From Pseudomonadota bacterium (GTDB taxonomy: Bacteria > Pseudomonadota > Gammaproteobacteria > Burkholderiales > Burkholderiaceae_C), in contig JAZKDA010000120.1 in NCBI GenBank assembly GCA_040387815.1, forward strand, positions 21,041 to 85,040: a DNA stretch of 64,000 bases. Reading direction: 5' to 3'. Shown piece after piece: positions 7,685-56,427 of this stretch. A program made the position numbers and the translations under genes. The notes beneath the pieces were generated by a model, which saw only the letters and a list, made by a program, of their open reading frames with translations, had not been told where the DNA came from and did not search any database. The stretch's first letter is position 1; each line of letters starts with the position of its first letter.

Positions 7685-7698
7685 GTACGCATGTGTAC
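7685..7698. promoter_or_regulatory. GTAC-N6-GTAC operator (GTACGCATGTGTAC)
   Basis: Palindrome ~80 bp upstream of the ACAD start; one of 12 copies. Confidence 0.75.
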
Positions 7699-7766
7699 TG
7701 TATCACCGCGCCCCGTCCGCAACAGCGGGAGAACCCCAATGCCATAAGGACAAGCGGCGCTGCCGG

Positions 7767-8258
7767 TCAGCGCCGCGGCATGCCCGGCAGCGCCAGTGCG
7801 TGGTCGCTGCCTGTGTCCGGCAGCAGCGGGCCGCGCCGGAACACGCCGCTGGTGCGCACGGCCAGCTCGCCATCGGCATAGATCAGCCCTTGTGAAAACA
7901 CCAGGTTCTTCGTGACCTTCAGGATCTGCGCCCGGCCGTGGACCCAGCTGCCCAGCAGCGCCCGGCCGACGAAGTCCATCTGCAGGCTGATGGTCGGCAG
8001 GAACTGGCGCGGGATGTCGGTCTGGTACTGCGCGGCGGTCGAAATCTGGATATCGGCGAAGGTGCACAGCATGCCGCCGTGGCAGCCGCCGCCGGGGTTG
8101 GCATGATGGGGCAGCACCCGGAAGCCGAACTCGAGCGCGCCCTCGTGCCAACGGGCGAACAGCGGACCGCTGTGGGTGGCGAAGGTGCCGCCCGCGTCGA
8201 CCTGGGTCCATCCGGCGGGGGCGTCGACGGGAGGGTGTGCTTGCGTGACTTGGCTCAT
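7767..8258 (-). CDS. PaaI family thioesterase
   Basis: HANPGGGCHGGMLCTFAD hot-dog motif; ATG at 8258 overlaps upstream stop. Confidence 0.9.
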   Translation of the reverse strand: MSQVTQAHPPVDAPAGWTQVDAGGTFATHSGPLFARWHEGALEFGFRVLPHHANPGGGCHGGMLCTFADIQISTAAQYQTDIPRQFLPTISLQMDFVGRALLGSWVHGRAQILKVTKNLVFSQGLIYADGELAVRTSGVFRRGPLLPDTGSDHALALPGMPRR

Positions 8259-9493
8259 AGTTTCTTGCGCATCTGGGCCCAGGCTTCCACCAGGGCCGGG
8301 CGGTGGGCCGGGTCGGCGATGGCGATCAGGGCCTCGGCGCGGGCATTCAGGCCCAGGCCGCGCACCTGCGCCACACCATGCTCGGTGACCACCGCATCGG
8401 TGAGGTAGCGCGGCACCGTGACCAGCGCCTGGTCGGTGATGGCCGGCACGATGCGCGAGACACTGCCGCCGCGCGCGGTGGAAGGCAGGCAAGTGACCAG
8501 CCGTCCCCCGGGCGAACGCTGCGCACCCTGCGAATAGCAGGGCAGGCCGCCCGAACCGGCCTGGATGACGCCGGCCGTGCGCTCGGCGTTGACCTGGCCC
8601 AGCAGGTCGACCTCCACGCCGCCATTGACGGCGATGAAGCGTTCGGTCGCCGCGACGCGGTCGGGGTCATGGGTCTGGCCGACGTCAGCCAGGTACAGAT
8701 GCGGCAGGGACGCGGCGAATTCGCGCAATGCGGCGTCGCCCAACACGACGCCGGTGAGCATGCGGGCGTCGGGGTCCATTGCCCCCGCGTCCCACATGGT
8801 CCGCAGGGCCGAGGGCAGCATGCCGCCATGAAAGCGCAGGCGCCGGTGGTTGCCCAGCGCCTGGCCCAGCGACAGCGGCACCCCGCCGATGCCAAACTGC
8901 AGTGTGTCGCCGTCACGCACCAGGCCGGCCACATGGCGACCGATGGCGCGCTCGGTGTCGCCCAGCACCGGGTCGGCGAAATCGATGAGCGGCGTCTCGG
9001 CCTCGACGATGTGGTCGAGTTCGGAGATGTGAACGCGAAAGCTCGAGTCGAGCCGCGGCAGGGCCGGGTTGAGGTGGGCCACCCGCCGGCCGGCGCGCTG
9101 CCATACCAGCGGCACGAAGTCGCACGACAGGCCCGGCGCGCACCAGCCGTCGGCATCGGGCGGCGTGAGCTGGGCGATGGCCACGTCGAACACGGGCCCG
9201 TCACGCAACTCGCGCGCGATGCCCACGTAATCGAGCCCGATCACGTCGGCGCGGCCTTGCGCGATGCCCTTGCGCAGCGCCGGCGTCATGAACCAGCCCA
9301 GTTGCCGCGCCTCGGGATGGATGGCCAGGTAATCGGTGCGGTCGATGCCGGGAAACTGCACACTGGAGAAGGTGACCCCGCGCGCGCGCTCGGGATCGGC
9401 CAGCAGCTCCTGGTGCAGCAGGGTGGATTCGTTGCTCATGGCCGGCGCCCAGACCCGAAGGCCCGGCGCCAGCATGTCCACCAGCCGCTTCAT
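8255..9493 (-). CDS. Acetyl-CoA hydrolase/transferase family protein (4-hydroxybutyrate CoA-transferase-like)
   Basis: DGDTLQFGIGG, NGGVEVDLLGQVNAE, SRIVP, VVTEHGVA, RAEALIAIADP motifs. Confidence 0.9.
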   Translation of the reverse strand: MKRLVDMLAPGLRVWAPAMSNESTLLHQELLADPERARGVTFSSVQFPGIDRTDYLAIHPEARQLGWFMTPALRKGIAQGRADVIGLDYVGIARELRDGPVFDVAIAQLTPPDADGWCAPGLSCDFVPLVWQRAGRRVAHLNPALPRLDSSFRVHISELDHIVEAETPLIDFADPVLGDTERAIGRHVAGLVRDGDTLQFGIGGVPLSLGQALGNHRRLRFHGGMLPSALRTMWDAGAMDPDARMLTGVVLGDAALREFAASLPHLYLADVGQTHDPDRVAATERFIAVNGGVEVDLLGQVNAERTAGVIQAGSGGLPCYSQGAQRSPGGRLVTCLPSTARGGSVSRIVPAITDQALVTVPRYLTDAVVTEHGVAQVRGLGLNARAEALIAIADPAHRPALVEAWAQMRKKL

Positions 9494-10932
9494 GCGGCCT
9501 TGGGTTGATCGGCCAACCAGATCAGCGGGCCGCCGCTCCAGGCAGGGGTCACGCCGGACAGGCAGGCGGCCACGTCGGTGAAGGCAGGATCCATGTCGGT
9601 CCAGGCGCTGGCCATGCGGGCCTGATCGGCCAGCGGCTTGCCGCGCAGCGCCTGCAGGCGGCTGCCATCACCCGGCGAACGCCAGGGCAGCGACCACAGC
9701 TTGGTCGCCAGCACCGCGAAGGTGGCGGCGGCTGCATCGTCGGCGGTGGCGATCTCGAGCACGCGGCCATAGGGGCCGGCCGGCGCCAACACGAGCTGGG
9801 TGCCCGAGGCGCCGGCCACGGCGCCATCGAGCACGCGCAGCGTGGCGCGGTGGGTGCGGCCGGCCGTGTCGGTGGCCTCCAGCGTGCCCGCCGGCAGCGC
9901 GGCGTCGGCCGCCTGAGGCAGCTTGACCTTGGCCAGGGCCTTGGCCCACTCGGCCGGGGCGTCAGGTCCGACGCGCAGCTGTGCAATGCCGGCATCGGAC
10001 GGCGGCGCGAGTTCGCGATCGGCCCGCAAGCGCTCCAGGAAAAGGGTGCGCACCATGTGCCCGGCAACCGGGTCGAACATCAGCCGCAGGAAGATGTTCA
10101 TCTCCACCGCGGTACCCTGGGCCAGCGGCAGGCGGGCGCCTTCGAGCACGCAGTCGGTGATGGCACTGTAGGCCGGGTAGTCACGGTAGTCGTCGGCACT
10201 CACGCCATGGCGGGCCGCGACGGCCTCGGCCACGCCCGGGCCTGGCAACGGCGCATCGTCCAGAGACAGGTGCGCAAACTTGCGCGTCATGTCCACTGGT
10301 GTGTGGTGCATGCCGCGCGCCAGGGCCTTGGCGGCATCCACCAGCGAAGCCGCAGGCGCCAATTGTGTGGCCAGGCCGAGCTTGAGCGCGGTGGCCGGAT
10401 CGACCGAACGGCCGGTCAGCAGCATGTCCATGCCGGTCTCGAAGCCCACCAGGCGTGGCAGCCGCTGGGTGCCGCCGGCGCCGGGCAGCAGGCCCCATCG
10501 CACCTCGGGCAAGCCCAGCTGCACCTTGGGATCGTCGACCACCACGCGCTCGCGGCAGGCCATGGTGAGCTCCAGGCCACCGCCCAGCGCCAGGCCGTTG
10601 CAGGCCGCGACGAAGGGTTTGGCCGAGGCTTCCAGCCGCACGAACTGGCGGCCCAGCCGGCCGCAGGTCTCGAACATCTGTTCGTGGGTGCTCGTGCGCG
10701 CGGCGTCGGTGTAGCCGCGCACCATCACCAGGTCGGCGCCGGCCAGGAAGGTCGGCTTGGCGGAGGTGATGACGCAGCTGCGCACGGCGTCGTCGCTGTC
10801 CACGCGGTCCATCAGCGCGTCGATCGCGTCCATCAGCTCGACCGAAAACACGTTCATCGAGCGGCCAGGCATGTCGATGGTGGCCAGCAGCACGCCATCG
10901 GCATCCAGCTCGGTGCGGATTTGTGGATTCAC
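9490..10932 (-). CDS. FadB/FadJ-type enoyl-CoA hydratase domain with degenerate C-terminal region
   Basis: DMPGRSMN, FLAGAD, GGGLEL, GLPEVRWGLLPGAGGTQRLPRL; no GxGxxG dehydrogenase motif follows. Confidence 0.85.
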   Translation of the reverse strand: MNPQIRTELDADGVLLATIDMPGRSMNVFSVELMDAIDALMDRVDSDDAVRSCVITSAKPTFLAGADLVMVRGYTDAARTSTHEQMFETCGRLGRQFVRLEASAKPFVAACNGLALGGGLELTMACRERVVVDDPKVQLGLPEVRWGLLPGAGGTQRLPRLVGFETGMDMLLTGRSVDPATALKLGLATQLAPAASLVDAAKALARGMHHTPVDMTRKFAHLSLDDAPLPGPGVAEAVAARHGVSADDYRDYPAYSAITDCVLEGARLPLAQGTAVEMNIFLRLMFDPVAGHMVRTLFLERLRADRELAPPSDAGIAQLRVGPDAPAEWAKALAKVKLPQAADAALPAGTLEATDTAGRTHRATLRVLDGAVAGASGTQLVLAPAGPYGRVLEIATADDAAAATFAVLATKLWSLPWRSPGDGSRLQALRGKPLADQARMASAWTDMDPAFTDVAACLSGVTPAWSGGPLIWLADQPKAA

Positions 10933-10948
10933 GGCGACGCTCTTTCGC

Positions 10949-11743
10949 TCAGGCGAACTTCTTGAAGTCGGGCTTGCGGCGCTCGTTGAATGCGCGCACG
11001 CCTTCCTTGGACTCTTCAGTCTGATAGAAGTGCTTGACAGTCTGGATGCCCTGGAAGCTGATGCCGCGAATGCTCTCGCTGTCGGCGGCGAACGAGCGCT
11101 TGATGATGGTCAGCGCGGTCGGGCTCATCTCGTTGATGTCCTTGCACCAGGCGTCCACTTCGGCGTCGAGCTGGTCATGCGGCACGACCTTGTTCACCAG
11201 GCCCATCGCGGCGGCCTCGGTGGCGCTGTAGCGCAGGCAGCGGAACCAGATCTCGCGGGCCTTCTTCTCGCCGACGATGCGGGCGAGGTAGGCGGTGCCC
11301 CAACCCGGATCGGCCGAGCCGACCTTGGGGCCGACCTGGCCGAAGGTGGCCTTCTCGCTGGCGATGGTCAGGTCGCAGATGGTGGCGAACACGTTGCCGC
11401 CGCCAATCGCGAAGCCCTGCACCTTGGCGATCGACACCTTGCGCAGGTCGCGCAGGGCGGTCTGCATCTCTTCGATGGGCATGCCCACCGTGCCGCGCGG
11501 ACCGTACAGGCCGTCTTCCGACAGGTGCACCTTCTGGTCGCCGCCGGTGCAAAAAGCCTTGTCGCCGGCGCCCGAGAGCACCATCACGTTGGCGCTTTTT
11601 TCCTCGTCGGCGCGGTGCAGCGCGTCGATCATCTCCTCCAGCGTCTGCAGACGGAAGGCGTTGTACACCTCCGGCCGGTTGATGGTGATGCGCACGACGC
11701 CGTCGCGCACTTCATAGAGGATGTCCTTGTATTCCTTGGCCAT
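10949..11743 (-). CDS. badI: 2-ketocyclohexanecarboxyl-CoA hydrolase (MenB-like crotonase)
   Basis: AFCTGGDQ, GGGNVFATICD, GQVGPKVGSADPGWG, GEKKAREIW; adjacent to badH-like and aliA-like genes. Confidence 0.85.
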   Translation of the reverse strand: MAKEYKDILYEVRDGVVRITINRPEVYNAFRLQTLEEMIDALHRADEEKSANVMVLSGAGDKAFCTGGDQKVHLSEDGLYGPRGTVGMPIEEMQTALRDLRKVSIAKVQGFAIGGGNVFATICDLTIASEKATFGQVGPKVGSADPGWGTAYLARIVGEKKAREIWFRCLRYSATEAAAMGLVNKVVPHDQLDAEVDAWCKDINEMSPTALTIIKRSFAADSESIRGISFQGIQTVKHFYQTEESKEGVRAFNERRKPDFKKFA

Positions 11744-11781
11744 GTTGAGCTCCAAATAGGTTCGAGTGAAATGACGTGGGG

Positions 11782-12552
11782 TCAGCCGTGCATCGACAGG
11801 CCGCCGGAGACGCTGATGGTCTGGCCGGTCATGAAGGCGGCGTCGTCGCTGGCCAGGAAGGCCACCAGGCCCGGGTAGTCGTCGGGCACGCCGATGCGGC
11901 CCAGCGGCACGCCGCGCACCATGGCGTCGCGGATCTTGGCGCCCTGCTCGCCGGTGCCCACAAAAGCGGTCATGGCGGGCGTGTCGGTGGGGCCGGGACA
12001 CACCGTGTTGACAGTCACGTTCGAGCGCGCCACCTCGCGGGCCAGCGCCTTGGCGAAGGCGATGGTCGCGCCCTTGCAGCCCGAATACACCACCTCGCCG
12101 CTGGAGCCGACCCGGCCCGCGTCGGAGGCGATGTTGATGATGCGGCCGGACTTGCGCTGGGCCATGCCCTGGGCGACGGCGTGCGTCATGTGCAAGGGGC
12201 CGAACCAGTTGATCGAGGTGACCTTCTTCCAGAAGGCCTCGTCGGTCTTGAGGAAGGGCATGGGGGTGTCCCAGCCGGCGTTGTTGACCAGGATGTCGGT
12301 ACCCTGGCCGGTCTGCTGCTCGAAGCTGGCCACGGCCGCGGTGACGGCGCCGTAGTCGGTGATGTCGCAGCTGACGGCGACGGCCTTGCCGCCGGCCGCC
12401 TCGATGGCGGCCACGGTCTGGCCGGCGCCGTCGGCATTGATGTCGAACACGCCGACAGTGATGCCCTCGGCGCCCAGGCGGGTGGCGATGGCGCGGCCGA
12501 TGCCGCTGCCGGCGCCGGTGACGATGGCGGTCTTGCCTTGCAGTCCTCGCAT
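11782..12552 (-). CDS. badH: 2-hydroxycyclohexanecarboxyl-CoA dehydrogenase (SDR)
   Basis: NNAGWD, IASDAGRVGSSGE, YSGCK, VCPGPTDT, SVSGGLSMHG; gene context. Confidence 0.85.
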   Translation of the reverse strand: MRGLQGKTAIVTGAGSGIGRAIATRLGAEGITVGVFDINADGAGQTVAAIEAAGGKAVAVSCDITDYGAVTAAVASFEQQTGQGTDILVNNAGWDTPMPFLKTDEAFWKKVTSINWFGPLHMTHAVAQGMAQRKSGRIINIASDAGRVGSSGEVVYSGCKGATIAFAKALAREVARSNVTVNTVCPGPTDTPAMTAFVGTGEQGAKIRDAMVRGVPLGRIGVPDDYPGLVAFLASDDAAFMTGQTISVSGGLSMHG

Positions 12553-12681
12553 TGAATTCTCCAGTGACAGTCGAAAAAATCAGGCCTTTCGGCGGCCGGG
12601 ACGTCCCGGCCGGCCGAGGGAATGACAAGCGGTCAGGCAGGGCTTGCGCCGGACCGTCATGTTTTGGTGCTGTGATGCATG

Positions 12682-12695
12682 ATACGCTAGTGAAC
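12682..12695. promoter_or_regulatory. GTAC-N6-GTAC operator variant (ATACGCTAGTGAAC)
   Basis: Overlaps a minus-strand TATCAT -10 candidate upstream of badH. Confidence 0.7.
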
Positions 12696-12841: not shown

Positions 12842-12855
12842 GTACAGTACCGTAC
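12842..12855. promoter_or_regulatory. GTAC-N6-GTAC operator (GTACAGTACCGTAC)
   Basis: Overlaps TACTAT -10 candidate upstream of aliA copy 1. Confidence 0.75.
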
Positions 12856-12905: not shown

Positions 12906-14534
12906 ATGAACACCCCCCGTTTCGACGCCGCCGCCCACGCCCGCGCCATGCGCGAGCAGGGTTTCTGGCGCGACACCAACTACGACGATTTCCTGATGCG
13001 GACGGTCGCGGCCACGCCCGACAAGCTCGCTGTCGTGGCGTACCGCGCAGACCGCGAAGGCACGCAACGGTTCAGCTACCGAGCCTTCGCCGACCTGGTG
13101 GCCCGGGTGGCCGCCTCGCTGCGCGGCCTGGGCGTGGGCCCTGGCGACATCGTGGCCCTGCAGGTGCCCAACTGGTGGGAGTTCGTGGTGACGGTTCTGG
13201 CCACCAACCGCATCGGCGCGGTGGTCAACCCGCTGATGCCCATCTTTCGCGAGCGCGAGCTGTCCTACATGCTGGGCTTCGCGCAGGCCAAGGTGCTGGT
13301 GGTGCCGCGCGTATTCCGGGGCTTTGACCACGAAGCCATGGCGCGCGATCTCAGGCCAGGGCTGCCGGATCTCAAGCACGTGATCGTGATCGACGGCCAG
13401 GGCGACAACAGCTTCGACAAGATGCTGCTGTCCGGCGCCGACCGGCTGGCGCCGAGCCAGCCGCCGCTGCTCGCGCCCGACGCCATGGCGGTGATGATGT
13501 TCACCTCCGGCACCACCGGCTCGCCCAAGGGGGTGATGCACAGCACCAATACCCTGGTGGCCAACAGCCACTCGTTGTCGGGCCGCTTCGGCCTGACCGC
13601 CGACGACGTGCTGCTGGCCTGCTCACCGCTGGGCCACATGACGGGCTACGCCGCGGTGCTGAACCTGAGCCTGTCCATCGGCGGCACCATGGTGTTGCAG
13701 GACGTCTGGGAAGTAAAGCGCGGCGTCGCCATCATGGCCGACGAAGGCGTGACCTACACCGCGGCCTCCACGCCCTTCCTGTCGGACATCGTCGAAACCG
13801 TCGCCGGCGGCGCGCAGCGCCCGGCCCGGCTTCGTTCCTTCCTGTGCGGCGGCGCGCCGATCCCGCCGGTACTGATCGAACGCGCCAAGCGCGAGCTCGG
13901 CCTGACCGTGTGCTCGCTGTTCGGCATGACCGAGGCCTTGTCGGCCACCCTGACCGAGCCCGCCCGTGCCCATGACAAATCGGCCACCACCGACGGCCGC
14001 GCCCTGGAGGGGGTCGGCGTGAAGGTGGTCGACGAGCAAGGCCATGAATGTCCGCGCGGCACCACTGGCCGGCTGCTGACCAGCGGCGCCCAGATGTTCC
14101 TGGGCTATTTCAAGCGCCCCGACATCGAGAGCTTCGACGACCAGGGCTGGTTCGACACCGGCGACCTGGCCTACATGGACGACGAGGGCTACATCCGCAT
14201 CAACGGCCGCACCAAGGACGTGCTGATCCGCGGCGGCGAGAACGTGCCCGTGGTCGAGATCGAGGCCCTGCTGTACCAGCACCCGGCGGTCGCCGTCGCG
14301 GCGCTGGTGGGCTACCCCGACGCCCGCCTGGGCGAGCGCGGCTGCGCCTGCGTGACCCTGCGCCCCGGCGCCAGCCTCACCCTGGCCGAGCTGCAGGCCT
14401 ACATGGCGCAGTGCAAGGTGGCCAAGAACTACTGGCCCGAGCGACTGGAGATCATGCCGGACATGCCGCGCACCCCCGCCGGCAAGATCCAGAAGTTCAA
14501 GTTGCGTGAGATGGCCGCGGGTGAACGCAAATGA
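12906..14534 (+). CDS. aliA: Cyclohexanecarboxylate-CoA ligase-like acyl-CoA synthetase, copy 1
   Basis: PNWWEF, NPLMPIFRERE, FTSGTTGSPKGVMH, ASTPF, RGGENVPVVEIE, YWPERLE; divergent from badH-badI. Confidence 0.8.
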   Translation: MNTPRFDAAAHARAMREQGFWRDTNYDDFLMRTVAATPDKLAVVAYRADREGTQRFSYRAFADLVARVAASLRGLGVGPGDIVALQVPNWWEFVVTVLATNRIGAVVNPLMPIFRERELSYMLGFAQAKVLVVPRVFRGFDHEAMARDLRPGLPDLKHVIVIDGQGDNSFDKMLLSGADRLAPSQPPLLAPDAMAVMMFTSGTTGSPKGVMHSTNTLVANSHSLSGRFGLTADDVLLACSPLGHMTGYAAVLNLSLSIGGTMVLQDVWEVKRGVAIMADEGVTYTAASTPFLSDIVETVAGGAQRPARLRSFLCGGAPIPPVLIERAKRELGLTVCSLFGMTEALSATLTEPARAHDKSATTDGRALEGVGVKVVDEQGHECPRGTTGRLLTSGAQMFLGYFKRPDIESFDDQGWFDTGDLAYMDDEGYIRINGRTKDVLIRGGENVPVVEIEALLYQHPAVAVAALVGYPDARLGERGCACVTLRPGASLTLAELQAYMAQCKVAKNYWPERLEIMPDMPRTPAGKIQKFKLREMAAGERK

Positions 14535-15356: not shown

Positions 15357-15360
15357 CAAC

Positions 15361-19662: not shown

Positions 19663-19676
19663 GTGCACCAGCGTAC
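19663..19676. promoter_or_regulatory. GTAC-N6-GTAC operator variant (GTGCACCAGCGTAC)
   Basis: 36 bp upstream of the minus-strand SDR operon. Confidence 0.7.
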
Positions 19677-19761: not shown

Positions 19762-19775
19762 GTACGCCAGTGAAC
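19762..19775. promoter_or_regulatory. GTAC-N6-GTAC operator variant (GTACGCCAGTGAAC)
   Basis: ~50 bp upstream of aliA copy 2. Confidence 0.7.
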
Positions 19776-19827: not shown

Positions 19828-21477
19828 ATGGCAATCCGCACTTTCGATCCCGCCGCCCACGCCGCCAAGATGCGCGCCGACGGCTGGTGGGTGGACCGCA
19901 CCACCGACAGCATGATCGCCGACGCCGCGCGGCAATTCCCAGACAAGGCCGCGATCGTGGCCTACCGCGCCGACAGCGGCGAGGCGCCGGTGCGGCGCTT
20001 CACCTACCGCCAGCTCGACGACTACATCGGCCGCGGCGCGGCCGCCTTGCGCAAGCTGGGCGTGGCCAAGGGCGATGTGGTGTCGATCCAGCTGCCCAAC
20101 TGGTGGGAGTTCGTGCTGGTGACGCTGGCCTGCGGCCGCCTGGGCGCGGTGGTGAACCCGTTGATGCACATCTTCCGCGAGCGCGAAATGACCTACATGG
20201 TCGGTTTTTGCGAAGCCAAGGTGCTGGTGGTGCCCAAGCAGTTCCGCGGCTTCGACCATGAGGAAATGGCCAAGGCGGTGCAGGCCAACTGCCCGAAACT
20301 GGCCCATGTGCTGGTGGTGGGCAGCGGCGGCGACAACGACCTGGAGAAGGTGCTGTTTTCCGGCACCGAGGCGATCGAGCCCGCCGGCCCGAACCGAGCC
20401 GCGCCGCGCCGCGCCGACGAGATGGCGGTGCTGATGTTCACCTCCGGCACCACCGGTTCGCCCAAGGGCGTGATGCACACCGACAACACCCTGGTGGCCT
20501 GCGTGCGCGGGCTGGCACAGCGTTTCGGCCTGAGCGCCGACGACGTGCTGCTGGCCTGCTCGCCGATGGGCCACATGATGGGCTATGCCGCGGTGATGTT
20601 CCAGAGCTTGTGCCTGGGCTGCACCGTGGTGTTGCAGGACGTGTGGGAGGGCAAGCGCGGCGTGGCCATCATGGCCGCCGAGGGCGTGACGCACATCGGC
20701 GCCGCCACCCCCTTCCTGGTGGACATCTGCGAGGCGGTGGCCGCCGGCGGCCCCAAGCCCAAGCTGCGCACCTTCCTGTGCGGCGGCGCGCCCATCCCGC
20801 CGGTGGTGGTGCAACGTGCGGCCGCTGAGCTCGGCCTGAACGTCTCCAGCCTGTGGGGCATGACCGAATCGCTGGGCAGCACGCTGACCGAGCCCTCGCG
20901 CGCCCATGAGAAGTCGGCCAGCACCGACGGCCGGCCGCTGGAGGGCACCGAGGTGCGCATCGTCGACGCCGACGGCAAGCCGTTGCCCACCGGCGAGACC
21001 GGCCGGCTGATGGTGCGCGGCGCCCAGATGTTCGTGGGGTATTACAAGCGCCCCGACATCGAGACCTTCGACGCCGAAGGCTGGTTCGACACCGGCGACT
21101 TGGCCTACATGGACAACGAGGGCTACATCCGCATCAACGGCCGGACCAAGGATGTGCTCATCCGTGGCGGTGAGAACGTGCCGGTGGTCGAGATCGAGAA
21201 CCTGGTGCTCAAGCACCCGGCCATCGCCGGCGCCGCGCTGGTGGGCATTCCCGATGCGCGCCTGGGAGAGCGCGGCTGCCTGTTCGTGGCGCTGCGGCCA
21301 GGGCAGAGCTTTGACCTGGCCACGCTGCACGCCTACATGGCCGAGAGCAAGGTGGCCAAGCAGTACTGGCCCGAGCGGGTCGAAGTGATCGCCGACATGC
21401 CACGCACCCCCAGCGGCAAGATCCAGAAGTTCATCCTGCGCGAGAAGGCCAAGGCCTTCGCAACGGGGGCCGCATGA
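19828..21477 (+). CDS. aliA: Cyclohexanecarboxylate-CoA ligase-like acyl-CoA synthetase, copy 2
   Basis: Closely similar to 12906-14534 along its whole length; RBS AGGAG before ATG 19828. Confidence 0.75.
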   Translation: MAIRTFDPAAHAAKMRADGWWVDRTTDSMIADAARQFPDKAAIVAYRADSGEAPVRRFTYRQLDDYIGRGAAALRKLGVAKGDVVSIQLPNWWEFVLVTLACGRLGAVVNPLMHIFREREMTYMVGFCEAKVLVVPKQFRGFDHEEMAKAVQANCPKLAHVLVVGSGGDNDLEKVLFSGTEAIEPAGPNRAAPRRADEMAVLMFTSGTTGSPKGVMHTDNTLVACVRGLAQRFGLSADDVLLACSPMGHMMGYAAVMFQSLCLGCTVVLQDVWEGKRGVAIMAAEGVTHIGAATPFLVDICEAVAAGGPKPKLRTFLCGGAPIPPVVVQRAAAELGLNVSSLWGMTESLGSTLTEPSRAHEKSASTDGRPLEGTEVRIVDADGKPLPTGETGRLMVRGAQMFVGYYKRPDIETFDAEGWFDTGDLAYMDNEGYIRINGRTKDVLIRGGENVPVVEIENLVLKHPAIAGAALVGIPDARLGERGCLFVALRPGQSFDLATLHAYMAESKVAKQYWPERVEVIADMPRTPSGKIQKFILREKAKAFATGAA

Positions 21478-26078: not shown

Positions 26079-26107
26079 TTGACATCAATCGTACGCACAT
26101 TTACGGT
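26079..26107 (+). promoter_or_regulatory. Sigma70 promoter TTGACA-N17-TACGGT with operator GTACGCACATTTAC (26091-26104)
   Basis: Canonical -35, 17-bp spacer; operator lies in the spacer and overlaps -10. Confidence 0.75.
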
Positions 26108-31583: not shown

Positions 31584-31612
31584 TTGACGAAATTCATACG
31601 CTGGTGTACGGT
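31584..31612 (+). promoter_or_regulatory. Sigma70 promoter TTGACG-N17-TACGGT with operator ATACGCTGGTGTAC (31596-31609)
   Basis: Same geometry as the promoter at 26079. Confidence 0.75.
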
Positions 31613-32952: not shown

Positions 32953-33067
32953 GCGCAGTGCCGAGCCGCCTCAAGCAAGCTCGCGCCCCCTCGGGGGGCA
33001 GCGAGGACACGCAGTGCCGAGCGTGGGGGCTCACATGAGCGCAGCGCCGAGCGTGGGGGCCACATGA
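32949..33067 (+). repeat. Intergenic repeat element forming two ATGA-coupled mini-ORFs
   Basis: ACATGAGC occurs three times; GCAGYGCCGAGCGTGGGGGC is duplicated; CCCCCTCGGGGG hairpin. Confidence 0.75.
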
Positions 33068-37196: not shown

Positions 37197-37210
37197 GTAC
37201 GCTAGTGTAA
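37197..37210. promoter_or_regulatory. GTAC-N6-GTAC operator variant (GTACGCTAGTGTAA)
   Basis: ~50 bp upstream of aliB; overlaps candidate promoter TTGAAA-N16-TACGCT. Confidence 0.75.
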
Positions 37211-37261: not shown

Positions 37262-38419
37262 ATGGTATTGACCGACGACCAGAAAGCGCTGCAGGAAACT
37301 GCCCGCCGCTTCGCCCGCGAGCGCCTGCTGCCCGATTATCAAAAGCGCGAGAAGGTCGGCGTGCTCGACCGCGCACTGATCAAGCAAATGGGTGAGCTCG
37401 GCCTGCTGGGCACCGACCTGCCCGAGGAATACGGCGGTCTGGGGGTCGACTCCGTCACCACCGGCCTGATCGCCGAAGAACTGGCCTACGGCGACTTCAA
37501 TGTCAGCGCCGTGCCGGTGGGCATTTCGCTCAACGCCGCCATCCTGATCCGCCACGCCCAACCCCATGTGATCAAGCAATGGGTGCCGCGCATGGTGGCC
37601 GGCGACGCGGTGGTGGCCATCTGCCTGACCGAGCCGCGCGGCGGCTCCGACGCCAGCAACCTGCAGCTGCGCGCGCGCCTGAACGCGCAAGGCACGCACT
37701 ACATCATCAATGGCGAAAAAACCTCCATCACCTTCGCCGACCGGGCCGACGCCTACCTGATCTTCGCCCGCACCGGCACGCCCGAGGAAGGCGCCAAGGG
37801 GGTCAGCGCCTTCTTCATTCCCTACGAGGGCAGCAAGGGCATCTCGCGCACCTGCTTCGACGATGTGGGCAGCGCGATCATCGGCCGCGGCTCGGTGTTC
37901 TTCGACGACGTGGCGGTGCCGGTCGACCACATGCTCGGTGACCTGGGCAAGGGTTTCACCCAGGTGATGCAGGGCTTCGACTACAGCCGCGCGCTGATCG
38001 GCCTGCAATGCGTGGGCGCGGCGCAGGCCTCGCTGGACGAAGCCTGGGCCTACAGCAAGGAACGCGAAGCCTTCGGCCGCCCGATCGGGCAGTTCCAGGG
38101 CGTGAGCTTTCCGCTGGCCGAAGGCGAATCGCACATCGAGGCGATCCGCCAGCTGTGCTATCACGCCCTGGCCCTGCGCGATGCCGGCCAGCCGCACACC
38201 AAGGAGGCCGCCATGTGCAAGTGGATGGGGCCGCGCTACGCCTTCGACGTGATCCACCAGTGCCTTCTGACCTTCGGCCACTACGGCTGGAGCAAGGACC
38301 TGCCGCACCAGCAGCGCATGCGCGACGTGATGGGCCTGGAGATCGGCGATGGCACGGCCGGCGTCATGAAGCTGATCATCGCCCGCGAGCGTATCGGCCG
38401 CACCGCCGTTCAGTACTGA
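37262..38419 (+). CDS. aliB: Cyclohexanecarboxyl-CoA dehydrogenase-like ACAD
   Basis: LTEPRGGSDA, GEKTSI, MQGFDYSRALIGLQC, FGHYG, QQRMRDVMGLEIGDGT as in AliB/BadJ. Confidence 0.82.
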   Translation: MVLTDDQKALQETARRFARERLLPDYQKREKVGVLDRALIKQMGELGLLGTDLPEEYGGLGVDSVTTGLIAEELAYGDFNVSAVPVGISLNAAILIRHAQPHVIKQWVPRMVAGDAVVAICLTEPRGGSDASNLQLRARLNAQGTHYIINGEKTSITFADRADAYLIFARTGTPEEGAKGVSAFFIPYEGSKGISRTCFDDVGSAIIGRGSVFFDDVAVPVDHMLGDLGKGFTQVMQGFDYSRALIGLQCVGAAQASLDEAWAYSKEREAFGRPIGQFQGVSFPLAEGESHIEAIRQLCYHALALRDAGQPHTKEAAMCKWMGPRYAFDVIHQCLLTFGHYGWSKDLPHQQRMRDVMGLEIGDGTAGVMKLIIARERIGRTAVQY

Positions 38420-38488
38420 CCGGTATCGTCAGCGCCCGAGAAACCGGGCACCATCGCCACTGCACGCCACCCTGGGGGAACCGACCAC

Positions 38489-39520: not shown

Positions 39521-39536
39521 AGACCGGAGCCGCCCC

Positions 39537-40118: not shown

Positions 40119-40132
40119 GTACACTAGTGCAA
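40119..40132. promoter_or_regulatory. GTAC-N6-GTAC operator variant (GTACACTAGTGCAA)
   Basis: Contains TACACT -10 candidate; ~38 bp upstream of SBP gene. Confidence 0.7.
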
Positions 40133-44680: not shown

Positions 44681-44688
44681 TTCACCAG

Positions 44689-44713
44689 GCGCGGGTCGCT
44701 CCGCGCTTTTTTT
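44689..44713 (+). terminator. Intrinsic terminator
   Basis: GCGCGG-6nt loop-CCGCGC followed by T7, just after livF stop. Confidence 0.75.
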
Positions 44714-44722
44714 CCAGCCAAC

Positions 44723-44738
44723 AATTGCAATTGCAATT
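44723..44738. promoter_or_regulatory. Perfect 16-bp palindrome AATTGCAATTGCAATT, candidate MarR operator
   Basis: AT-rich palindrome 20 bp upstream of the Rieske gene. Confidence 0.6.
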
Positions 44739-44757
44739 TGATCCAACGGAGCCTCCC

Positions 44758-46074: not shown

Positions 46075-46877
46075 GCACCGCCAAGGCAATCGATTTCACC
46101 GGCCGCGTGGTCGCCATCAGCGGCGCCGCGCGCGGAATCGGCGCGGCGCTGTCTCACGCGTTCATGGCGCGCGGCGCCCGCGTGGTGGCGCTGGACCGGC
46201 ACTGGGACGAAGACTGCGCACTGGCGCACGCGGTGCGGACCGCCGACGGCATCGCCCTGCCCTGCGACATCACCGACGACGCGCAGGTCGACGCCGCCTT
46301 CGAAGCCGCCATGGCGCGCTGCGGCCGCATCGACGTGCTGGTGAACAACGCGGCCATGCGTCAGCGCGATTTCTATCCCGTGAGCGGCGCCTGCGCCGTG
46401 CTCGACACCGAGGACGCGCACTGGGAGCGCATGTACGCGGTCAATGTGGTGGGCACGCTCAAGCTCACGCGGCGTTTCATCCGGCCCATGCTGGCCCAGC
46501 GCGGCGGCAGCATCATCAACGTCAGCGCCAACGGCAGCCTCACCCTGCCGGTGGCGCCCGGCGTGGCGCAGGGCAACCATCCCGGGCTGCTCAATCAGCC
46601 GTATGACGCGAGCAAGGCGGCGCTCACCAGCATGAGCTTTTACCTGGCCGAAGAAGTCAAGCCGCACAACGTGGCGGTCAACGTGGTCTTTCCAGGCCCC
46701 ACCCGAACCACCGGCTCGGACGAACTCACGCCGGGGCGCGCGGCGCTGGGGCTGAAAATGGAACTGCTGGATGCGGCGCATCTGCTGCCGGTGTGCCTGA
46801 TGCTCGCCGCTGTCGATGCAAGCAGCACGGGACGAGCCTATGACGTGGTGGCTTGGAATGCAGCGCAGCGGGCCTGA
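46071..46877 (+). CDS. SDR oxidoreductase
   Basis: SGAARGIG, NNAA, YDASK; ATGA-coupled to the Rieske gene. Confidence 0.9.
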   Translation: MSTAKAIDFTGRVVAISGAARGIGAALSHAFMARGARVVALDRHWDEDCALAHAVRTADGIALPCDITDDAQVDAAFEAAMARCGRIDVLVNNAAMRQRDFYPVSGACAVLDTEDAHWERMYAVNVVGTLKLTRRFIRPMLAQRGGSIINVSANGSLTLPVAPGVAQGNHPGLLNQPYDASKAALTSMSFYLAEEVKPHNVAVNVVFPGPTRTTGSDELTPGRAALGLKMELLDAAHLLPVCLMLAAVDASSTGRAYDVVAWNAAQRA

Positions 46878-47445
46878 GCGCCTCGGCCTGGATCCCCGCC
46901 TGCGCGGGGATGACGAGGTATTTGTCGTCCCCGCGCAGGCGGGGACCCAGGCGCGCGGTACCTGTGCACCAAACATCGCAAGCGAGCGAGAGGCCCCCGC
47001 CTTCAACCCCGCCGCCTACATCCCCGCCCTGCTCAGCATCCTGAACAACCGCCTGTCCTCCGGCGCGTCTGACCTGTACCTGCAACGCTTCGGCGTGGGC
47101 ATCAACGAGTGGCGCATCCTCACCGTGCTCAAGCAGTATCCCGGCTGCACCGCCGGCTTCGTGTCCGAGCAGGCGGCCATTCACCTCACGGTGATCAGCC
47201 GCAGCCTGCGCGGCCTGCAAGACAAGGGATTGGTGGCGGTCGATCGCAGCGCCTGGCAGCGGCTGTTGGCGCTCACACCGGTGGGGCACACGATGCACGA
47301 CCGCATCGCGCGCGTGGCATTGCGGCGCGAGCAGAGGCTGCTGCAGGGTTTGTCGGCGAGCGAGGTCGAATGCCTGCGCGATGTGCTGCTGCGCCTGACC
47401 GCCAATCTCCCGCAAGTGGAGGCGCTGGTGCTCGACGACGCGTGA
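46858..47445 (+). CDS. MarR family transcriptional regulator (start uncertain; REP pair in 5' region)
   Basis: YIPALLSILNNRLSSGAS..FGVGINEWRIL, ISRSLRGL..KGLV, LALTPVG winged helix. Confidence 0.85.
   Translation: MQRSGPERLGLDPRLRGDDEVFVVPAQAGTQARGTCAPNIASEREAPAFNPAAYIPALLSILNNRLSSGASDLYLQRFGVGINEWRILTVLKQYPGCTAGFVSEQAAIHLTVISRSLRGLQDKGLVAVDRSAWQRLLALTPVGHTMHDRIARVALRREQRLLQGLSASEVECLRDVLLRLTANLPQVEALVLDDA
46888..46950. repeat. Inverted pair of REP-like palindromes
   Basis: CTGGATCCCCGCCTGCGCGGGGATGACG (46888-46915) and inverted copy (46923-46950). Confidence 0.85.
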
Positions 47446-48583: not shown

Positions 48584-48610
48584 GGTGAAACCTCGGAGGT
48601 GACGCAGTTG

Positions 48611-48624
48611 GTACGGTAGTGTAC
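48611..48624. promoter_or_regulatory. GTAC-N6-GTAC operator (GTACGGTAGTGTAC)
   Basis: Within an 85-bp divergent intergenic region. Confidence 0.78.
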
Positions 48625-48668
48625 AGTTTGCGTGAAATTCGACCCTGAAACCATAGGAGACAACCCGC

Positions 48669-50368: not shown

Positions 50369-50388
50369 GGGGCCGGCAGGCCCCCTCG
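50367..50388. terminator. 9-bp stem hairpin between convergent genes
   Basis: GAGGGGGCC-GGCA-GGCCCCCTC; no U-tract. Confidence 0.45.
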
Positions 50389-50392
50389 GCGG

Positions 50393-51580: not shown

Positions 51581-51624
51581 GATGTCTCCAGGTTGAGGCA
51601 GGGGAAGCGGGGAACCAGGGCCGG

Positions 51625-53186: not shown

Positions 53187-53201
53187 GGGGGAAACCTCGG
53201 C

Positions 53202-53265
53202 GAAACTTCAATTCGCCAGATTACCGTATACCTGTGTACGACCGGGAAGGGTGTTTTCCCGGATG
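53202..53265 (-). repeat. Triplicated promoter element, copy 1 (operator 53226-53239)
   Basis: AATTCGCCAGA...GTATACCTGTGTAC...GGTGTTTTCCCGGATG upstream of the CoA ligase. Confidence 0.85.
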
Positions 53266-53275
53266 TCTATCAAAC

Positions 53276-54292
53276 TCAGCGGGTGCGGACGCGGCGCAGG
53301 TCGTCTTCAAGCGCCGCCTTCATGTCGGCGCCCAGTGGCGCCCACTGCGCCTCGGTCACCGGTGCCGTCGCCTGGCGCATGCGCTGGATCTCGGCGTCGC
53401 TCACGACGTTGATGATCATGCCCTTGTCCTTCAGGCGACTGGCCGCCTGTTCCACCTGCTGGCGGTTGACCTTGCGCTGCTCGAGGGTGGCAGCCCTGCC
53501 ACAGTCACGCAGCACCGCCTGGTCGGCGGCTGGCAATGTGTCGAAGATGCGCTTGGAGAACATGACGGCGATCGGGTTGTAGACGTGCCGTGTGACGCTC
53601 AGGTACTTTTGCACCTCATAGAACTTCATTGCCTCGATCAGGTTGGTGGGGTTCTCCTGTCCATCGACGGTCTTGGTTTCGAGCGCGGAATACAGTTCCG
53701 GGAACGGCATCGGAATGGCGAACCCGCCCAGGGCCTTGAAGGTGGCCAGCATCACCGGCGTCGGAAGGGCCCGAAACTTCAGGCCCGAGAGGTCTTCCAT
53801 GCGGTTGATGGGGCGGCGCGAGTTCGTCATGTTGCGGTACCCGTTCTCCCAAAAGCCCAGAACCACGACGCCCGCGGCTTCGAGCTTCTGGGTCAGCAGC
53901 GCGCCCGACTTGCCATCGAGCGCGGCGTCCGCCTCCTGTTCGTTCGTGAACAGGAAGGGCAGGTCGAACACGGCGGCCTGCGGAACGACGGTGGCCATGA
54001 AGGACGTGGCGGTGACCACGATCTCGACCGACCCGGTTCGAACCTGTTGCAAAACGGCCTGGTCGTTGCCGAGCGAGCCGTCGAAGAAGTTCTGCATCCG
54101 CAGCTTGCCACCCGACTTCTGCCCGATGCACTGCGCCATATAGGTCATTCCAATGCCCAGGGAGTGGTCCTTGGTTGTCGTCAGGCCCGCCCGGATGGTG
54201 CGCTCCTGGGCGCCGGCGGAACCCGCGGCCAACAGGCCCAATGCGCCGGCCGCGATGGCGACGGCGGACGCGATTTTCTTGAACGTGAACAT
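53276..54292 (-). CDS. dctP: TRAP transporter solute-binding subunit, copy 1
   Basis: FDLPFLF, WENGYRNMTN, GLKFR, PMPFPELY, VDGQENP, FYEVQKY. Confidence 0.95.
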   Translation of the reverse strand: MFTFKKIASAVAIAAGALGLLAAGSAGAQERTIRAGLTTTKDHSLGIGMTYMAQCIGQKSGGKLRMQNFFDGSLGNDQAVLQQVRTGSVEIVVTATSFMATVVPQAAVFDLPFLFTNEQEADAALDGKSGALLTQKLEAAGVVVLGFWENGYRNMTNSRRPINRMEDLSGLKFRALPTPVMLATFKALGGFAIPMPFPELYSALETKTVDGQENPTNLIEAMKFYEVQKYLSVTRHVYNPIAVMFSKRIFDTLPAADQAVLRDCGRAATLEQRKVNRQQVEQAASRLKDKGMIINVVSDAEIQRMRQATAPVTEAQWAPLGADMKAALEDDLRRVRTR

Positions 54293-54319
54293 GGATGTCT
54301 CCTGCTGTGAATGCGAATT

Positions 54320-54382
54320 GAAACCTCAATTCGCCAGATTACCGTCAACCTGCGTACGACCAAGAAGGTGTTTTCCCGGATG
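54320..54382 (-). repeat. Triplicated promoter element, copy 2 (operator 54344-54357)
   Basis: Same blocks as copy 1; upstream of dctP. Confidence 0.85.
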
Positions 54383-54455
54383 ACCTCGCCGATTCAGGGC
54401 CAGGGCTGCCACGTGCGCCGGCCGCTGGCCGCCCCTGGAAGCCGAACGGCTTGAC

Positions 54456-55736
54456 CTACCCCAGCAACCATCTCATCGGTACCAGCACCAGGGCCGGAAA
54501 GGCCACCAGAAGCATGAGAACGGCGGTCTGCGCCAACAGAAAGGGCCAGATTCCCCGCGTGACTTCCGTCATCGTGACCTTGCCCACGCCGCTGACCACG
54601 TTGAGCACGATCCCCACCGGCGGCGTCACCAGCCCGATCGCGTTGGCGATGATGAACAGGATGCCGAAATACACCGGGTCGATTCCGGCCTTGGCGACCA
54701 CTGGCATCAGCACCGGCGTGAGGATCATCAGCGTGGGCGCGAAATCCAGCGCCGTGCCCACCACCAGGACCAGGATCATGATGGCCAGCATCAACAACTT
54801 GGGATCGCCCGAGAAGGGCCGCAAGATCGCCTCGACCTGCGCGGGCACTTCCGACACGGTGATGAACCAGGCCGAGGCCAGGGCCGCGGCAATGGTGAAC
54901 ACGACCACCGCCGTCGTCTTGACGGCATTGACGAACAGGCCGTACAACGCCGACGGTTTCATTTCGCGGTGGATCACAAGGCCGACCACCAGCGCGTAAG
55001 CACAGGCGACCACCGCCGCTTCCGTGGGCGTGAACAGGCCGGTCTTCATGCCGCCGACGATGCCGATCGGCATCAGCAGACCCAGGAAGGCCTCGCGGAA
55101 CGAGCGCAACACCTGCGCCCCCGACTGGCGGGGCAGCGGCTTGACCTGCTCCTTGCGCACCACCCACATCCACGCGATGACCAGCGCCACGCCGAGCATG
55201 ATGCCCGGCACGATGCCCGCCATGAACATCTTGCCGATGGAGACGTTGGAGATGACGCAAAAAACGATGATGGCCACGCTGGGTGGCAAGACCGGCGCAA
55301 TGATGGCCGAGCATGAAATCAGGCCCGCCGAACGCGCAGGGTCGTGTCCCGCCGAACGCATGACCGGCATCACCATGGCCGCCAGGATGGCTGCGTCGGC
55401 GGCGGCCGACCCTGAAATGGCCGCCAGCAAAATGCCGGCGAAGATCACGACCAGGCCCAGGCCGCCACGAATATGGCCAACGCAGGCCATCGCGAACTGG
55501 ACGATGCGCCTGGCCATGCCCGAGGCGTTCATGATCTCACCGGCCAGAATGAAAAACGGAATGGCCAGCAGCGGATAGTTGTCGGCGCCTTCGATCAGCT
55601 TTTGCGCGACGATGGTGATTTCGAGATTGCCCTGGGCCGCCTGCAGGGCGAAGGCGCACACCAGCAGCGCGAAGGCAATCGGCATGCCCAGCGCCATCGC
55701 ACCCATCAGCGCGACCAGGAACACTGCGACGGTCAT
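54456..55736 (-). CDS. dctM: TRAP transporter large permease
   Basis: LLAIPFFILAGEIM, SGSAAAD, PPS, FTPTEA, TPPVG. Confidence 0.95.
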   Translation of the reverse strand: MTVAVFLVALMGAMALGMPIAFALLVCAFALQAAQGNLEITIVAQKLIEGADNYPLLAIPFFILAGEIMNASGMARRIVQFAMACVGHIRGGLGLVVIFAGILLAAISGSAAADAAILAAMVMPVMRSAGHDPARSAGLISCSAIIAPVLPPSVAIIVFCVISNVSIGKMFMAGIVPGIMLGVALVIAWMWVVRKEQVKPLPRQSGAQVLRSFREAFLGLLMPIGIVGGMKTGLFTPTEAAVVACAYALVVGLVIHREMKPSALYGLFVNAVKTTAVVVFTIAAALASAWFITVSEVPAQVEAILRPFSGDPKLLMLAIMILVLVVGTALDFAPTLMILTPVLMPVVAKAGIDPVYFGILFIIANAIGLVTPPVGIVLNVVSGVGKVTMTEVTRGIWPFLLAQTAVLMLLVAFPALVLVPMRWLLG

Positions 55737-56305
55737 ACGCCGGCCTCCGCGGCAACTTCGGCGCCAGTGTGCTCATCGTCGAGTTCAGTCGAGGCCGGGC
55801 CCTCACGCAGCAGCCGAACGATGCGCAGCAGGGAAATGATCCCCATACCGCCACAACAAACGTAGGCGCTGCCATAGACCAGGCTCATGGGAAAGCCCAT
55901 CACCAGCGAGCGCGTGGTCGCACTGATGTCATGCTGCATCGCCGTGCCCCAGACCACCAGGACACAACAGCCCACGACAAACAGCTCGGACACGATGACC
56001 GTGACCCAACGGCCCCGGCGTGAGAGGGCGTTGGACAGCAGGTCGACCTTGATGTGCGTCTTCTCGCGCGCGGCCAGCACTGCGCCGACGAACACCACCC
56101 AGATGAAAAGCAGCCGCGCCAGCTCCTCCGACACGTCCAGACCGGTATTGAAGCCATAACGCAGGATCACGTTGCCCAGCACCAAGGCCAGCATGATCGC
56201 CAGCATCAGCGCCAAGATCGCCTCGGTTGCGGTGAACAGCCGCGTCGTCCACCGCTGGGCAAAGCCGCGGGCTGGATCGGGTGTTCGGGGGTCAGCCGGC
56301 TGCAC
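55733..56305 (-). CDS. dctQ: TRAP transporter small permease
   Basis: NVILRY, SEELARLLFIW, HIKVD; four TM segments; start uncertain. Confidence 0.92.
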   Translation of the reverse strand: MQPADPRTPDPARGFAQRWTTRLFTATEAILALMLAIMLALVLGNVILRYGFNTGLDVSEELARLLFIWVVFVGAVLAAREKTHIKVDLLSNALSRRGRWVTVIVSELFVVGCCVLVVWGTAMQHDISATTRSLVMGFPMSLVYGSAYVCCGGMGIISLLRIVRLLREGPASTELDDEHTGAEVAAEAGV

Positions 56306-56363
56306 GCTTGTGCCAGGTCACGGCCTGTTTCTGGATTGGGGCGCATTGCACGGGGAATCCTTC

Positions 56364-56427
56364 GAGACTTAAATTCGCCAGAGTATCGTATCCCTGTGTA
56401 CTAATAGCAGCGGTGTTTTCCCGGATG
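56364..56427 (-). repeat. Triplicated promoter element, copy 3 (operator 56388-56401)
   Basis: Same blocks; homology to copy 1 extends to 56314, into remnant CoA-ligase codons. Confidence 0.85.

What the first reader, a model, noticed from the sequence alone, without database searches (positions are those of the whole stretch)
7685..56401. One palindromic operator (GTAC-N6-GTAC) links ~50 kb of catabolic genes into a probable single regulon
Seen: 12 intergenic copies of a 14-bp box with ideal sequence GTACACTAGTGTAC, at 7685, 12682, 12842, 19663, 19762, 26091, 31596, 37197, 40119, 48611, 53226/54344 and 56388 (the last three within the triplicated promoter). All lie about 25-130 bp upstream of a start codon. 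At 26079 and 31584 the box fills the spacer of TTGACR-N17-TACGGT and overlaps the -10. Known: operators overlapping the -10 are typical of dimeric repressors such as acyl-CoA-sensing TetR or MarR proteins. Inference: one repressor controls ligases, ring-cleavage enzymes, kinases and transporters. I do not recognise this motif from any described regulator, and the regulator may lie outside the window.
Basis: partly seen in the sequence, partly recalled or inferred. Interest (0 to 1): 0.85.

Follow-up and report, generated by a model that had tools for sequence, protein, structure and literature searches.

The report
MarR operator across terpenoid-acid catabolic island
A 14-base palindrome recurs in the promoters of most catabolic operons in this window, and it is likely the binding site of an unstudied MarR-type repressor encoded about 46 kb away, which would switch on a predicted pathway for ring-shaped (probably monoterpene-derived) acids.

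Summary
The box is real. All 13 listed sites are present and intergenic; 10 are strong, 3 weak (26091, 54344, 56388). Boxes are 96% conserved in a relative whose other intergenic DNA is 79% conserved. The likely binder is not the window's own MarR, and the box is not BadR's. It is a SlyA-like MarR (MarR-A, C63:107964-108566) on the adjoining contig, about 46.5 kb left of the window. In other Burkholderiales its orthologs sit inside the same gene cluster: 117 boxes in 54 loci against 9 expected, and no other regulator recurs there. The genes resemble the Castellaniella monoterpene ring-cleavage (mrc) island (73% to MrcE; MarR-A 55% to island regulator CDM25292) more than canonical bad-ali. A paralog (MarR-B) goes with a sister box, GTATGC-N2-GCATAC, and the C/T difference tracks Val/Ala in the recognition helix. 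Likely mechanism: the dimer covers the spacer and -10, and a pathway acyl-CoA releases it. Binding, repression and ligand are untested. Eight searches found no description of the motif. Verdict: a new member of a known kind of regulon.

The parts
7685..7698 (.). operator box, 80 bp before ACAD (mrcB-like)-dienoyl-CoA reductase-ligase-hydrolase unit
   Evidence: identical in G810
12682..12695 (.). operator box, 130 bp before badH/mrcD-like, badI/mrcE-like, long ECH, CoA hydrolase, thioesterase unit
   Evidence: 23.8 bits; kept in G001 and G810
12842..12855 (.). operator box, 50 bp before aliA-like CoA ligase 1; overlaps a TACTAT/TATATT -10-like hexamer
19663..19676 (.). operator box, 36 bp before SDR-Zn reductase-MaoC-PanE-like unit
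19762..19775 (.). operator box, 52 bp before aliA-like CoA ligase 2
26079..26107 (+). sigma70-like promoter TTGACA-N17-TACGGT holding a weak box (26091-26104)
   Evidence: a look-alike promoter in L072 carries a strong box
31584..31612 (+). sigma70-like promoter TTGACG-N17-TACGGT holding the box 31596-31609, before ACAD-APH kinase unit
   Evidence: same layout before orthologous ACADs in other loci
37197..37210 (.). operator box, 51 bp before aliB-like acyl-CoA dehydrogenase
40119..40132 (.). operator box, 37 bp before branched-chain-type ABC transporter
48611..48624 (.). operator box between divergent Rv3169-family gene and enoyl-CoA hydratase
   Evidence: kept in G001 (L050) and G810
53226..53239 (.). 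box in triplicated promoter, copy 1 (before CoA ligase)
   Evidence: changed in G810
54344..54357 (.). weak box in triplicated promoter, copy 2 (before dctP)
   Evidence: 7.3 bits with the matrix from other genomes
56388..56401 (.). weak box in triplicated promoter, copy 3 (before dctQM)
   Evidence: 10.5 bits; identical in G810
5464..12552 (-). mrcB/C/D/E/F-like ring-cleavage genes (dienoyl-CoA reductase, ACAD, thioesterase, CoA hydrolase, long ECH, badI-like, badH-like)
12906..14534 (+). aliA-like CoA ligase 1 (below the NCBIfam cut-off)
19828..21477 (+). aliA-like CoA ligase 2 (below the cut-off)
37262..38419 (+). aliB-like acyl-CoA dehydrogenase (below the cut-off)
46858..47445 (+). local MarR gene, probably not the binder of the box (true start likely further downstream)
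44723..44738 (.). separate palindrome AATTGCAATTGCAATT before the Rieske-SDR-MarR unit; likely the local MarR's own site
   Evidence: unique in the genome and kept in G810; the assignment is inferred

Best explanation
The 14-bp palindrome (GTACRC-WW-GYGTAC) is likely the operator of a SlyA-like MarR repressor (MarR-A, G000:C63:107964-108566, about 46.5 kb left of the window) that would silence a predicted CoA-dependent pathway for substituted cyclohexane/cyclohexene carboxylic acids, probably monoterpene-derived. Shown: the boxes, their positions before start codons, their conservation, and their co-location with MarR-A orthologs in other genomes. Inferred: the dimer sits on the -35/-10 spacer; the right half-site plus flank (TAC-GAT/GGT/TAT) is often itself the -10 hexamer, so binding blocks RNA polymerase. 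Inferred by analogy with BadR: an early acyl-CoA made by the aliA-like ligases releases the repressor. MarR-A probably also represses itself through a weaker box. A paralog, MarR-B, likely runs a sister regulon on contig C63 through GTATGC-WW-GCATAC.
For: In congener G001 the badH-like gene (89%) is divergent from a MarR (79% to MarR-A) with the box at its start. 54 loci of MarR-A orthologs hold badI-like (36), badH-like (34), long ECH (29) and aliA-like (23) genes, and 117 boxes >=13 bits against a control mean of 8.9, maximum 43. Only 3 of the 117 lie inside aligned coding DNA, which covers 64% of the loci. No other regulator recurs in those loci. A strong box lies within 450 bp upstream of the MarR in 13 of 53 loci (shuffles 1-2%, L104 dropped for an indexing slip). 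A conserved -10 (mostly TAGAAT) followed directly by a weak box precedes it in 21 of 53. C63 and C120 overlap by 12 nt and are one contig in G810. Footprint in G810: 207/216 box bases against 1079/1363 other intergenic bases identical (one unaligned stretch left out). In 350 family genomes, close MrcE-like genes (>=90%) occur in 2, both with MarR-A. A strict pattern hits 2 of 3 MarR-A genomes and 3 of 347 others. With positions 4-5 masked, half-sites read C in 138/162 near GKVA proteins and T in 33/46 near GKAA proteins; window 21/24 C, C63 20/24 T. Pathway: 73% to C. defragrans MrcE against 62% to an annotated BadI; MarR-A is 55% over 115 aa to CDM25292 of the monoterpene island.
Against: No binding, expression or ligand data. 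The 54 loci were chosen for MarR-A and are related, so co-location could hide another binder encoded elsewhere. The matrix 'from other genomes' used sites picked with the window matrix, and the strict pattern came from such loci (G592 and G610 may be among them). A looser pattern separated genomes poorly: G592 13 hits but also 13 control hits, and G610's 8 tied with three genomes lacking MarR-A. G589 (unpublished, 85% complete) has two MarR-A genes but no strict box and no close MrcE-like gene. MarR-A's own upstream box in G000 scores only 7.3 bits. GKVT proteins have mixed boxes (8 C, 7 T, 6 A, 1 G). Helix residue and clade are nearly confounded. In MepR a proline at the start of the recognition helix (P62; same position assumed, not aligned here) could be changed to Ala without loss of repression (PMC3936728 section 15). 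The substrate rests on homology only, and the mrc functions are themselves proposed from proteomics and two mutants.
Confidence: 0.77

Rival explanations
1. MarR-A and MarR-B both bind both box types, so the island is one shared regulon rather than two.
For: The boxes differ mainly at one position per half-site; many C63 boxes score 14-19 bits on the GTAC matrix; hybrid boxes exist (C63:25421; G810 C1:135453).
Against: 53 of the 54 MarR-A loci hold no MarR-B, and their boxes are almost all of the C type; the box types segregate by contig within G000.
Confidence: 0.1
2. A different regulator (TetR, GntR or other) encoded elsewhere binds the box, and MarR-A merely travels with the cluster.
For: Loci were selected on MarR-A; G000 is only 76% complete; G589 has MarR-A without strict boxes.
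Against: No other regulator recurs in the 54 loci. The TetR left of the window and the window's LysR have no ortholog in 5 box-carrying genomes (best 38%; none at E<=1e-40). The box variant follows the MarR helix.
Confidence: 0.06
3. The palindrome is only back-to-back -10 elements of bidirectional promoters, with no repressor.
For: The right half plus flank reads TAnnnT in 50 of 102 oriented sites; 7 of the 13 window sites lie between divergent genes.
Against: Six sites lie between genes in tandem; the central RC-WW-GY is conserved; the motif is tied to one MarR clade and a strict form is rare in other family genomes.
Confidence: 0.04
4. The local MarR (46858-47445) binds the box.
For: It is the only MarR inside the window.
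Against: It occurs in 0 of 54 cluster loci, has no ortholog above 40% in 5 box-carrying genomes, and its own unit has a different unique palindrome and no box.
Confidence: 0.03

Closest known systems
BadR regulon of the bad-ali cyclohexanecarboxylate pathway (R. palustris, Aromatoleum sp. CIB; PMC9795900, passages read)
   Same: MarR repressor over aliA/aliB/badH/badI-type genes, with a palindromic operator on the core promoter; BadR is released by a CoA thioester (CHC-CoA), which is the model for the inference here.
   Different: BadR's operator is CAAN4TTG, absent from the four relevant gaps. MarR-A is only about 30% identical to the MarR beside a canonical badH-badI-aliB-aliA cluster. The enzymes fall below the NCBIfam cut-offs. 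The regulon is larger (10 or more promoters).
Monoterpene island / mrc cluster of Castellaniella defragrans 65Phen, and its counterpart on the Azoarcus sp. KH32C plasmid (PMC4109377, passages and section 5 read)
   Same: MrcE-like gene 73% identical; mrcB-, D- and F-like genes 81, 73 and 41% to the KH32C genes, matched by gene order; island regulator CDM25292 is of the same MarR subfamily.
   Different: No operator or regulon appeared in the passages read. The KH32C and C. defragrans MarR has GKAS, and KH32C boxes are mostly GTAT-type. The window shows no limonene dehydrogenase or geraniol dehydrogenase annotation and adds aliA/aliB-like, APH-kinase and Rv3169-family genes.
SlyA/RovA branch of the MarR family (PDB 3q5f, 2fbh)
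   Same: Best NCBIfam and PDB matches of MarR-A; the variable Val/Ala aligns with SlyA Pro61 at the start of recognition helix 4 (numbering from the alignment).
   Different: 58-70 bits against a cut-off of 120; Gly-Gly where SlyA has Val64-Arg65; controls catabolism rather than counter-silencing.

Membership tests
BadR regulon | operator CAATnnATTG / CAAN4TTG at the target promoters | tested here: not met
   no CAATnnATTG in the window and no CAAN4TTG in the four gaps before the bad/ali-like genes
BadR regulon | regulator orthologous to BadR | tested here: not met
   29-32% to the MarR of the P. aromaticivorans BN5 bad-ali cluster, taken as BadR from its position
BadR regulon | targets are canonical BadH, BadI, AliA, AliB | tested here: not met
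   329/431, 399/468, 700 and 686/792, 534/575 bits against cut-offs; 47-62% to the BN5 proteins
BadR regulon | released by an acyl-CoA | not testable with these tools
   needs EMSA with CoA esters
MarR-family repressor-operator system | regulator has a MarR winged-helix domain | tested here: met
   PF01047/PF12802 on near-identical homologs; SlyA structures are the best matches
MarR-family repressor-operator system | palindromic site overlapping core promoter elements | tested here: met
   promoters predicted from consensus, no start sites mapped
MarR-family repressor-operator system | site at or near the regulator's own gene | tested here: inconclusive
   strong in 13 of 53 loci, weak conserved form in 21 of 53, 7.3 bits in G000
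MarR-family repressor-operator system | direct binding and repression | not testable with these tools
   no binding or expression data
mrc (monoterpene ring cleavage) cluster | mrcB/C/D/E/F-like gene set | tested here: met
   MrcE 73% direct; B, D, F via KH32C; C by family and position only
mrc (monoterpene ring cleavage) cluster | acts on perillyl-CoA, needed for growth on monoterpenes | not testable with these tools
   substrate unknown
SlyA (NCBIfam NF002926) | score above the 120-bit cut-off | tested here: not met
   58.4 bits for MarR-A

The most novel reading that the evidence does not exclude
Two paralogous SlyA-like MarR repressors split one ~200-kb catabolic island into two orthogonal regulons through a single recognition-helix residue (Val reads GTAC, Ala reads GTAT). 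MarR-A is the master switch of an undescribed, widespread Burkholderiales pathway for substituted alicyclic (monoterpenoid or naphthenic-type) acids that couples mrc-type ring cleavage to lva-type phosphorylation and elimination of hydroxyl groups. The same subfamily would be the missing regulator of the Castellaniella/Thauera monoterpene islands.
Probability: 0.3. Interest if true: 0.62.

Novelty: new member of a known kind. Interest (0 to 1): 0.42.

Why it matters
It gives a named regulator, an operator and a gene list for an uncharacterised catabolic pathway found in Variovorax, Rubrivivax, Hydrogenophaga, Rhodoferax and relatives. A promoter reporter could then be used to screen for the substrate. 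It predicts how the monoterpene island of Castellaniella is regulated. It offers a clean test of a one-residue specificity switch between MarR paralogs, and a candidate biosensor for terpenoid or alicyclic acids. The regulatory logic itself (MarR repressor, acyl-CoA inducer) is ordinary.

Tried and rejected
Exact scan of genome contigs for a 20-bp ideal palindrome: 0 matches, too strict. Pattern with 2 mismatches in G001: no excess over control (18 per strand against 29). Loose pattern over 351 genomes: background too high, 289 genomes match. Class-wide search: MarR relatives in only 5 of 400 genomes. BadR, the local MarR, the LysR and the neighbouring TetR were considered and rejected. Rfam: no family at gathering score in the window. 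Sequencing runs: no RNA holder listed, which is no evidence either way. Earlier findings of this scan: three look-ups, nothing shown. The tree is the quick version with many open forks; rows under 110 aa and duplicates were left out. The identity-based binning mis-sorted three partial hits, so counts are taken. No structure or complex prediction was run, since protein-DNA binding cannot be scored here. RegPrecise and CollecTF are not available and were not checked.
Full report
1. Observation. All 13 coordinates carry the box. Ten differ from the ideal at 2-3 positions, 56388 at 4, and 26091 and 54344 at 5. Using my own codon-model gene calls, matches with <=3 mismatches number 10 in the window's 4,469 intergenic bases, 12 in the other ~375 kb of intergenic DNA and 6 in coding DNA. 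An 18-bp matrix from 11 sites gives leave-one-out scores of 15-19 bits for 10 of them. It gives 14 window hits against 0.7 (maximum 4) for 30 column-shuffled controls. A matrix from 84 distinct sites of other genomes, picked with the first matrix and so partly circular, recovers 10 of the 13 at >=14 bits. It scores 26091, 54344 and 56388 at 6.5, 7.3 and 10.5. In relative G810 (~91% DNA identity) 207/216 box bases are identical against 1079/1363 other intergenic bases. The stretch around 54344 did not align and was left out; with it the figures are 207/234 and 1079/1462.

2. The genes. Pfam and NCBIfam show a CoA-dependent catabolic island: badH-, badI-, aliA- (twice) and aliB-like genes, all below their cut-offs, a 480-aa enoyl-CoA hydratase, acyl-CoA dehydrogenases, SDRs, three APH-type kinases, an Rv3169-family gene, and ABC and TRAP transporters. 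The badI-like protein is 75% identical to a gene on the Azoarcus KH32C plasmid and 59-66% to annotated BadI proteins. It is 73% identical to C. defragrans MrcE. Neighbouring genes match the KH32C mrcB/D/F-like genes at 81, 73 and 41% (matched by gene order with Table 1 of PMC4109377). [quoted passage not shown] That step is inferred.

3. The regulator. BadR's operator is CAAN4TTG (PMC9795900, passages) and is absent from the four gaps tested. Eighteen loci of more distant badI relatives (+-1.5 kb) and two annotated bad clusters carry no GTAC box. In congener G001 the badH-like gene is divergent from a MarR gene with the box at its start. Its ortholog in this genome is C63:107964-108566 (MarR-A, 79%), with a paralog at C63:62419-62961 (MarR-B, 48%). 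C63's end overlaps C120's start by 12 nt and the two are one contig in G810. MarR-A thus lies about 46.5 kb and MarR-B about 92 kb left of the window. Of 58 loci, 54 are MarR-A orthologs (4 distant hits dropped). They hold the window's genes (badI-like 36, badH-like 34, long ECH 29, aliA-like 23, aliB-like 16) and 117 boxes >=13 bits against 8.9 (maximum 43) for controls. Three boxes lie in aligned coding DNA, and 103 are within 200 bp of a downstream gene, median 67 bp. No other regulator recurs there. The local MarR, the LysR and the TetR left of the window lack orthologs in five box-carrying genomes. The local MarR's unit has its own unique palindrome at 44723. Among 350 family genomes, 3 have MarR-A, 2 of these are the only ones with a >=90% MrcE-like gene, and a strict pattern hits those 2 plus 3 of 347 others; its reversed control hits 5 genomes. 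Against this: a looser pattern discriminated poorly, the unpublished genome G589 has MarR-A without strict boxes, and these genomes and loci are related and may overlap.

4. Extent of the regulon. Boxes head units covering roughly 2817-44680 and 47468-56305. The Rieske-SDR-MarR unit (44758-47445) and the genes at 56431-62073 have none. GTAC-type boxes >=14 bits also lie at C64:13887, C107:6551, C182:18964, C189:10197, C189:16047, C191:41183, C270:2650 and, doubtfully, C55:31372. Four of these precede genes whose orthologs sit in MarR-A clusters elsewhere (9, 8, 3 and 2 loci).

5. Sister regulon and specificity. C63 carries 12 intergenic boxes of the form GTATGC-WW-GCATAC (the matrix was trained on 11 C63 sites). 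With half-site positions 4 and 5 masked, position 4 is C in 138/162 half-sites near GKVA proteins (59 loci) and T in 33/46 near GKAA proteins (34 loci). It is T in 8/12 for GKAS (1 locus), A in 4/4 for EKIT (2 loci), and mixed for GKVT (3 loci) (L066, which has both paralogs, left out). Two proteins outside the MarR-A clade that have GKV go with mostly GTAC-type boxes (L141, L142). The residue aligns with SlyA Pro61 at the start of the recognition helix. In MepR a proline there contacts thymine methyls, but changing it alone did not abolish repression (PMC3936728 section 15). The quick tree gives two well-supported clades (99 and 100), so the correlation rests on few independent events and is a hypothesis.

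6. Mechanism. Shown: site positions, conservation and co-location. Inferred: MarR-A binds as a dimer and occludes the polymerase. At 26079 and 31584 the box fills a 17-bp spacer and its last three bases begin the -10; 50 of 102 oriented sites elsewhere have TAnnnT at that position, partly a consequence of the motif itself. Inferred by analogy with BadR: an early acyl-CoA of the pathway is the inducer. Confidence: real operator about 0.93, MarR-A as the binder about 0.8, monoterpenoid CoA ester as ligand about 0.5.

7. Known systems and novelty. It works like the BadR regulon but fails three membership tests for it. MarR-A belongs with CDM25292 of the C. defragrans monoterpene island (55% over 115 aa), listed in PMC4109377 only as a MarR regulator in the parts read. 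Searches (six literal motif strings, 0 papers) found no description of this operator. PMC6449761 (passages) has no MarR regulon and no 'GTAC' string in its main text. Papers seen: PMC9795900 (passages), PMC4109377 (passages, section 5), PMC6449761 (passages), PMC3936728 (passages, section 15), PMC6401476 (passages), bioRxiv 10.1101/2024.01.09.574893 (passages). Verdict: a new member of a known kind, interest 0.42.

Noticed in passing
G000:C63 (adjoins the window's contig), e.g. 18611, 43187, 55426, 58872, 65818, 103257: Twelve GTATGC-WW-GCATAC boxes before acyl-CoA catabolic operons, with more on C34, C52, C55 and C258; likely the MarR-B regulon.
   Followed up: partly
window 31678-34125, 37262-40031, 56431-59238: Three APH-type kinases next to acyl-CoA dehydrogenases or small unknown proteins, resembling the LvaA/LvaC route that phosphorylates and eliminates a 4-hydroxyacyl-CoA (bioRxiv 10.1101/2024.01.09.574893, passages). 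Not compared directly with Lva proteins.
   Followed up: no
window 51628-53186 (-): The CoA ligase is split by a frame change near 52230; the gene is whole (523-aa frame) in G810, so this is an assembly error or a recent lesion.
   Followed up: yes
window 53187-53278, 54293-54400, 56340-56433: The triplicated ~65-bp promoter has invariant flanks CATCCGGGAAAACACC and TCTGGCGAATT besides the box; these may bind another factor.
   Followed up: partly
window 44681-44757: A terminator-like hairpin followed by a unique palindrome AATTGCAATTGCAATT before a LigXa-like Rieske oxygenase-SDR-MarR unit.
   Followed up: partly
L013:10201-16964 (left of the window): A TetR-like gene divergent from a DUF35/MaoC/thiolase/acyl-CoA dehydrogenase set recalled as steroid side-chain-like (not scanned), with its own palindrome TATCGAACGTTCGATA.
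   Followed up: no
window 47468-48583 and 58231-59238: An Rv3169-family protein (above cut-off) and a DUF7065 protein lie in the island; Rv3169-like genes recur in 8 of 54 MarR-A loci, often with a box, hinting at a catabolic role for this family.
   Followed up: partly
L131:17598-17750: In Azoarcus sp. KH32C three GTAT/GTAC-type boxes precede the mrcB-D-E-F-like operon.
   Followed up: partly
L205:6078-6214: The BadR-type site in the P. aromaticivorans BN5 cluster lies within a longer palindrome, TATGCGTCAAT-AT-GTTGACGTATT, longer than the published 10-bp core.
   Followed up: no
window 1379-2857 (+): A 492-aa protein with a signal-peptide-like start and no Pfam or NCBIfam match.
   Followed up: no
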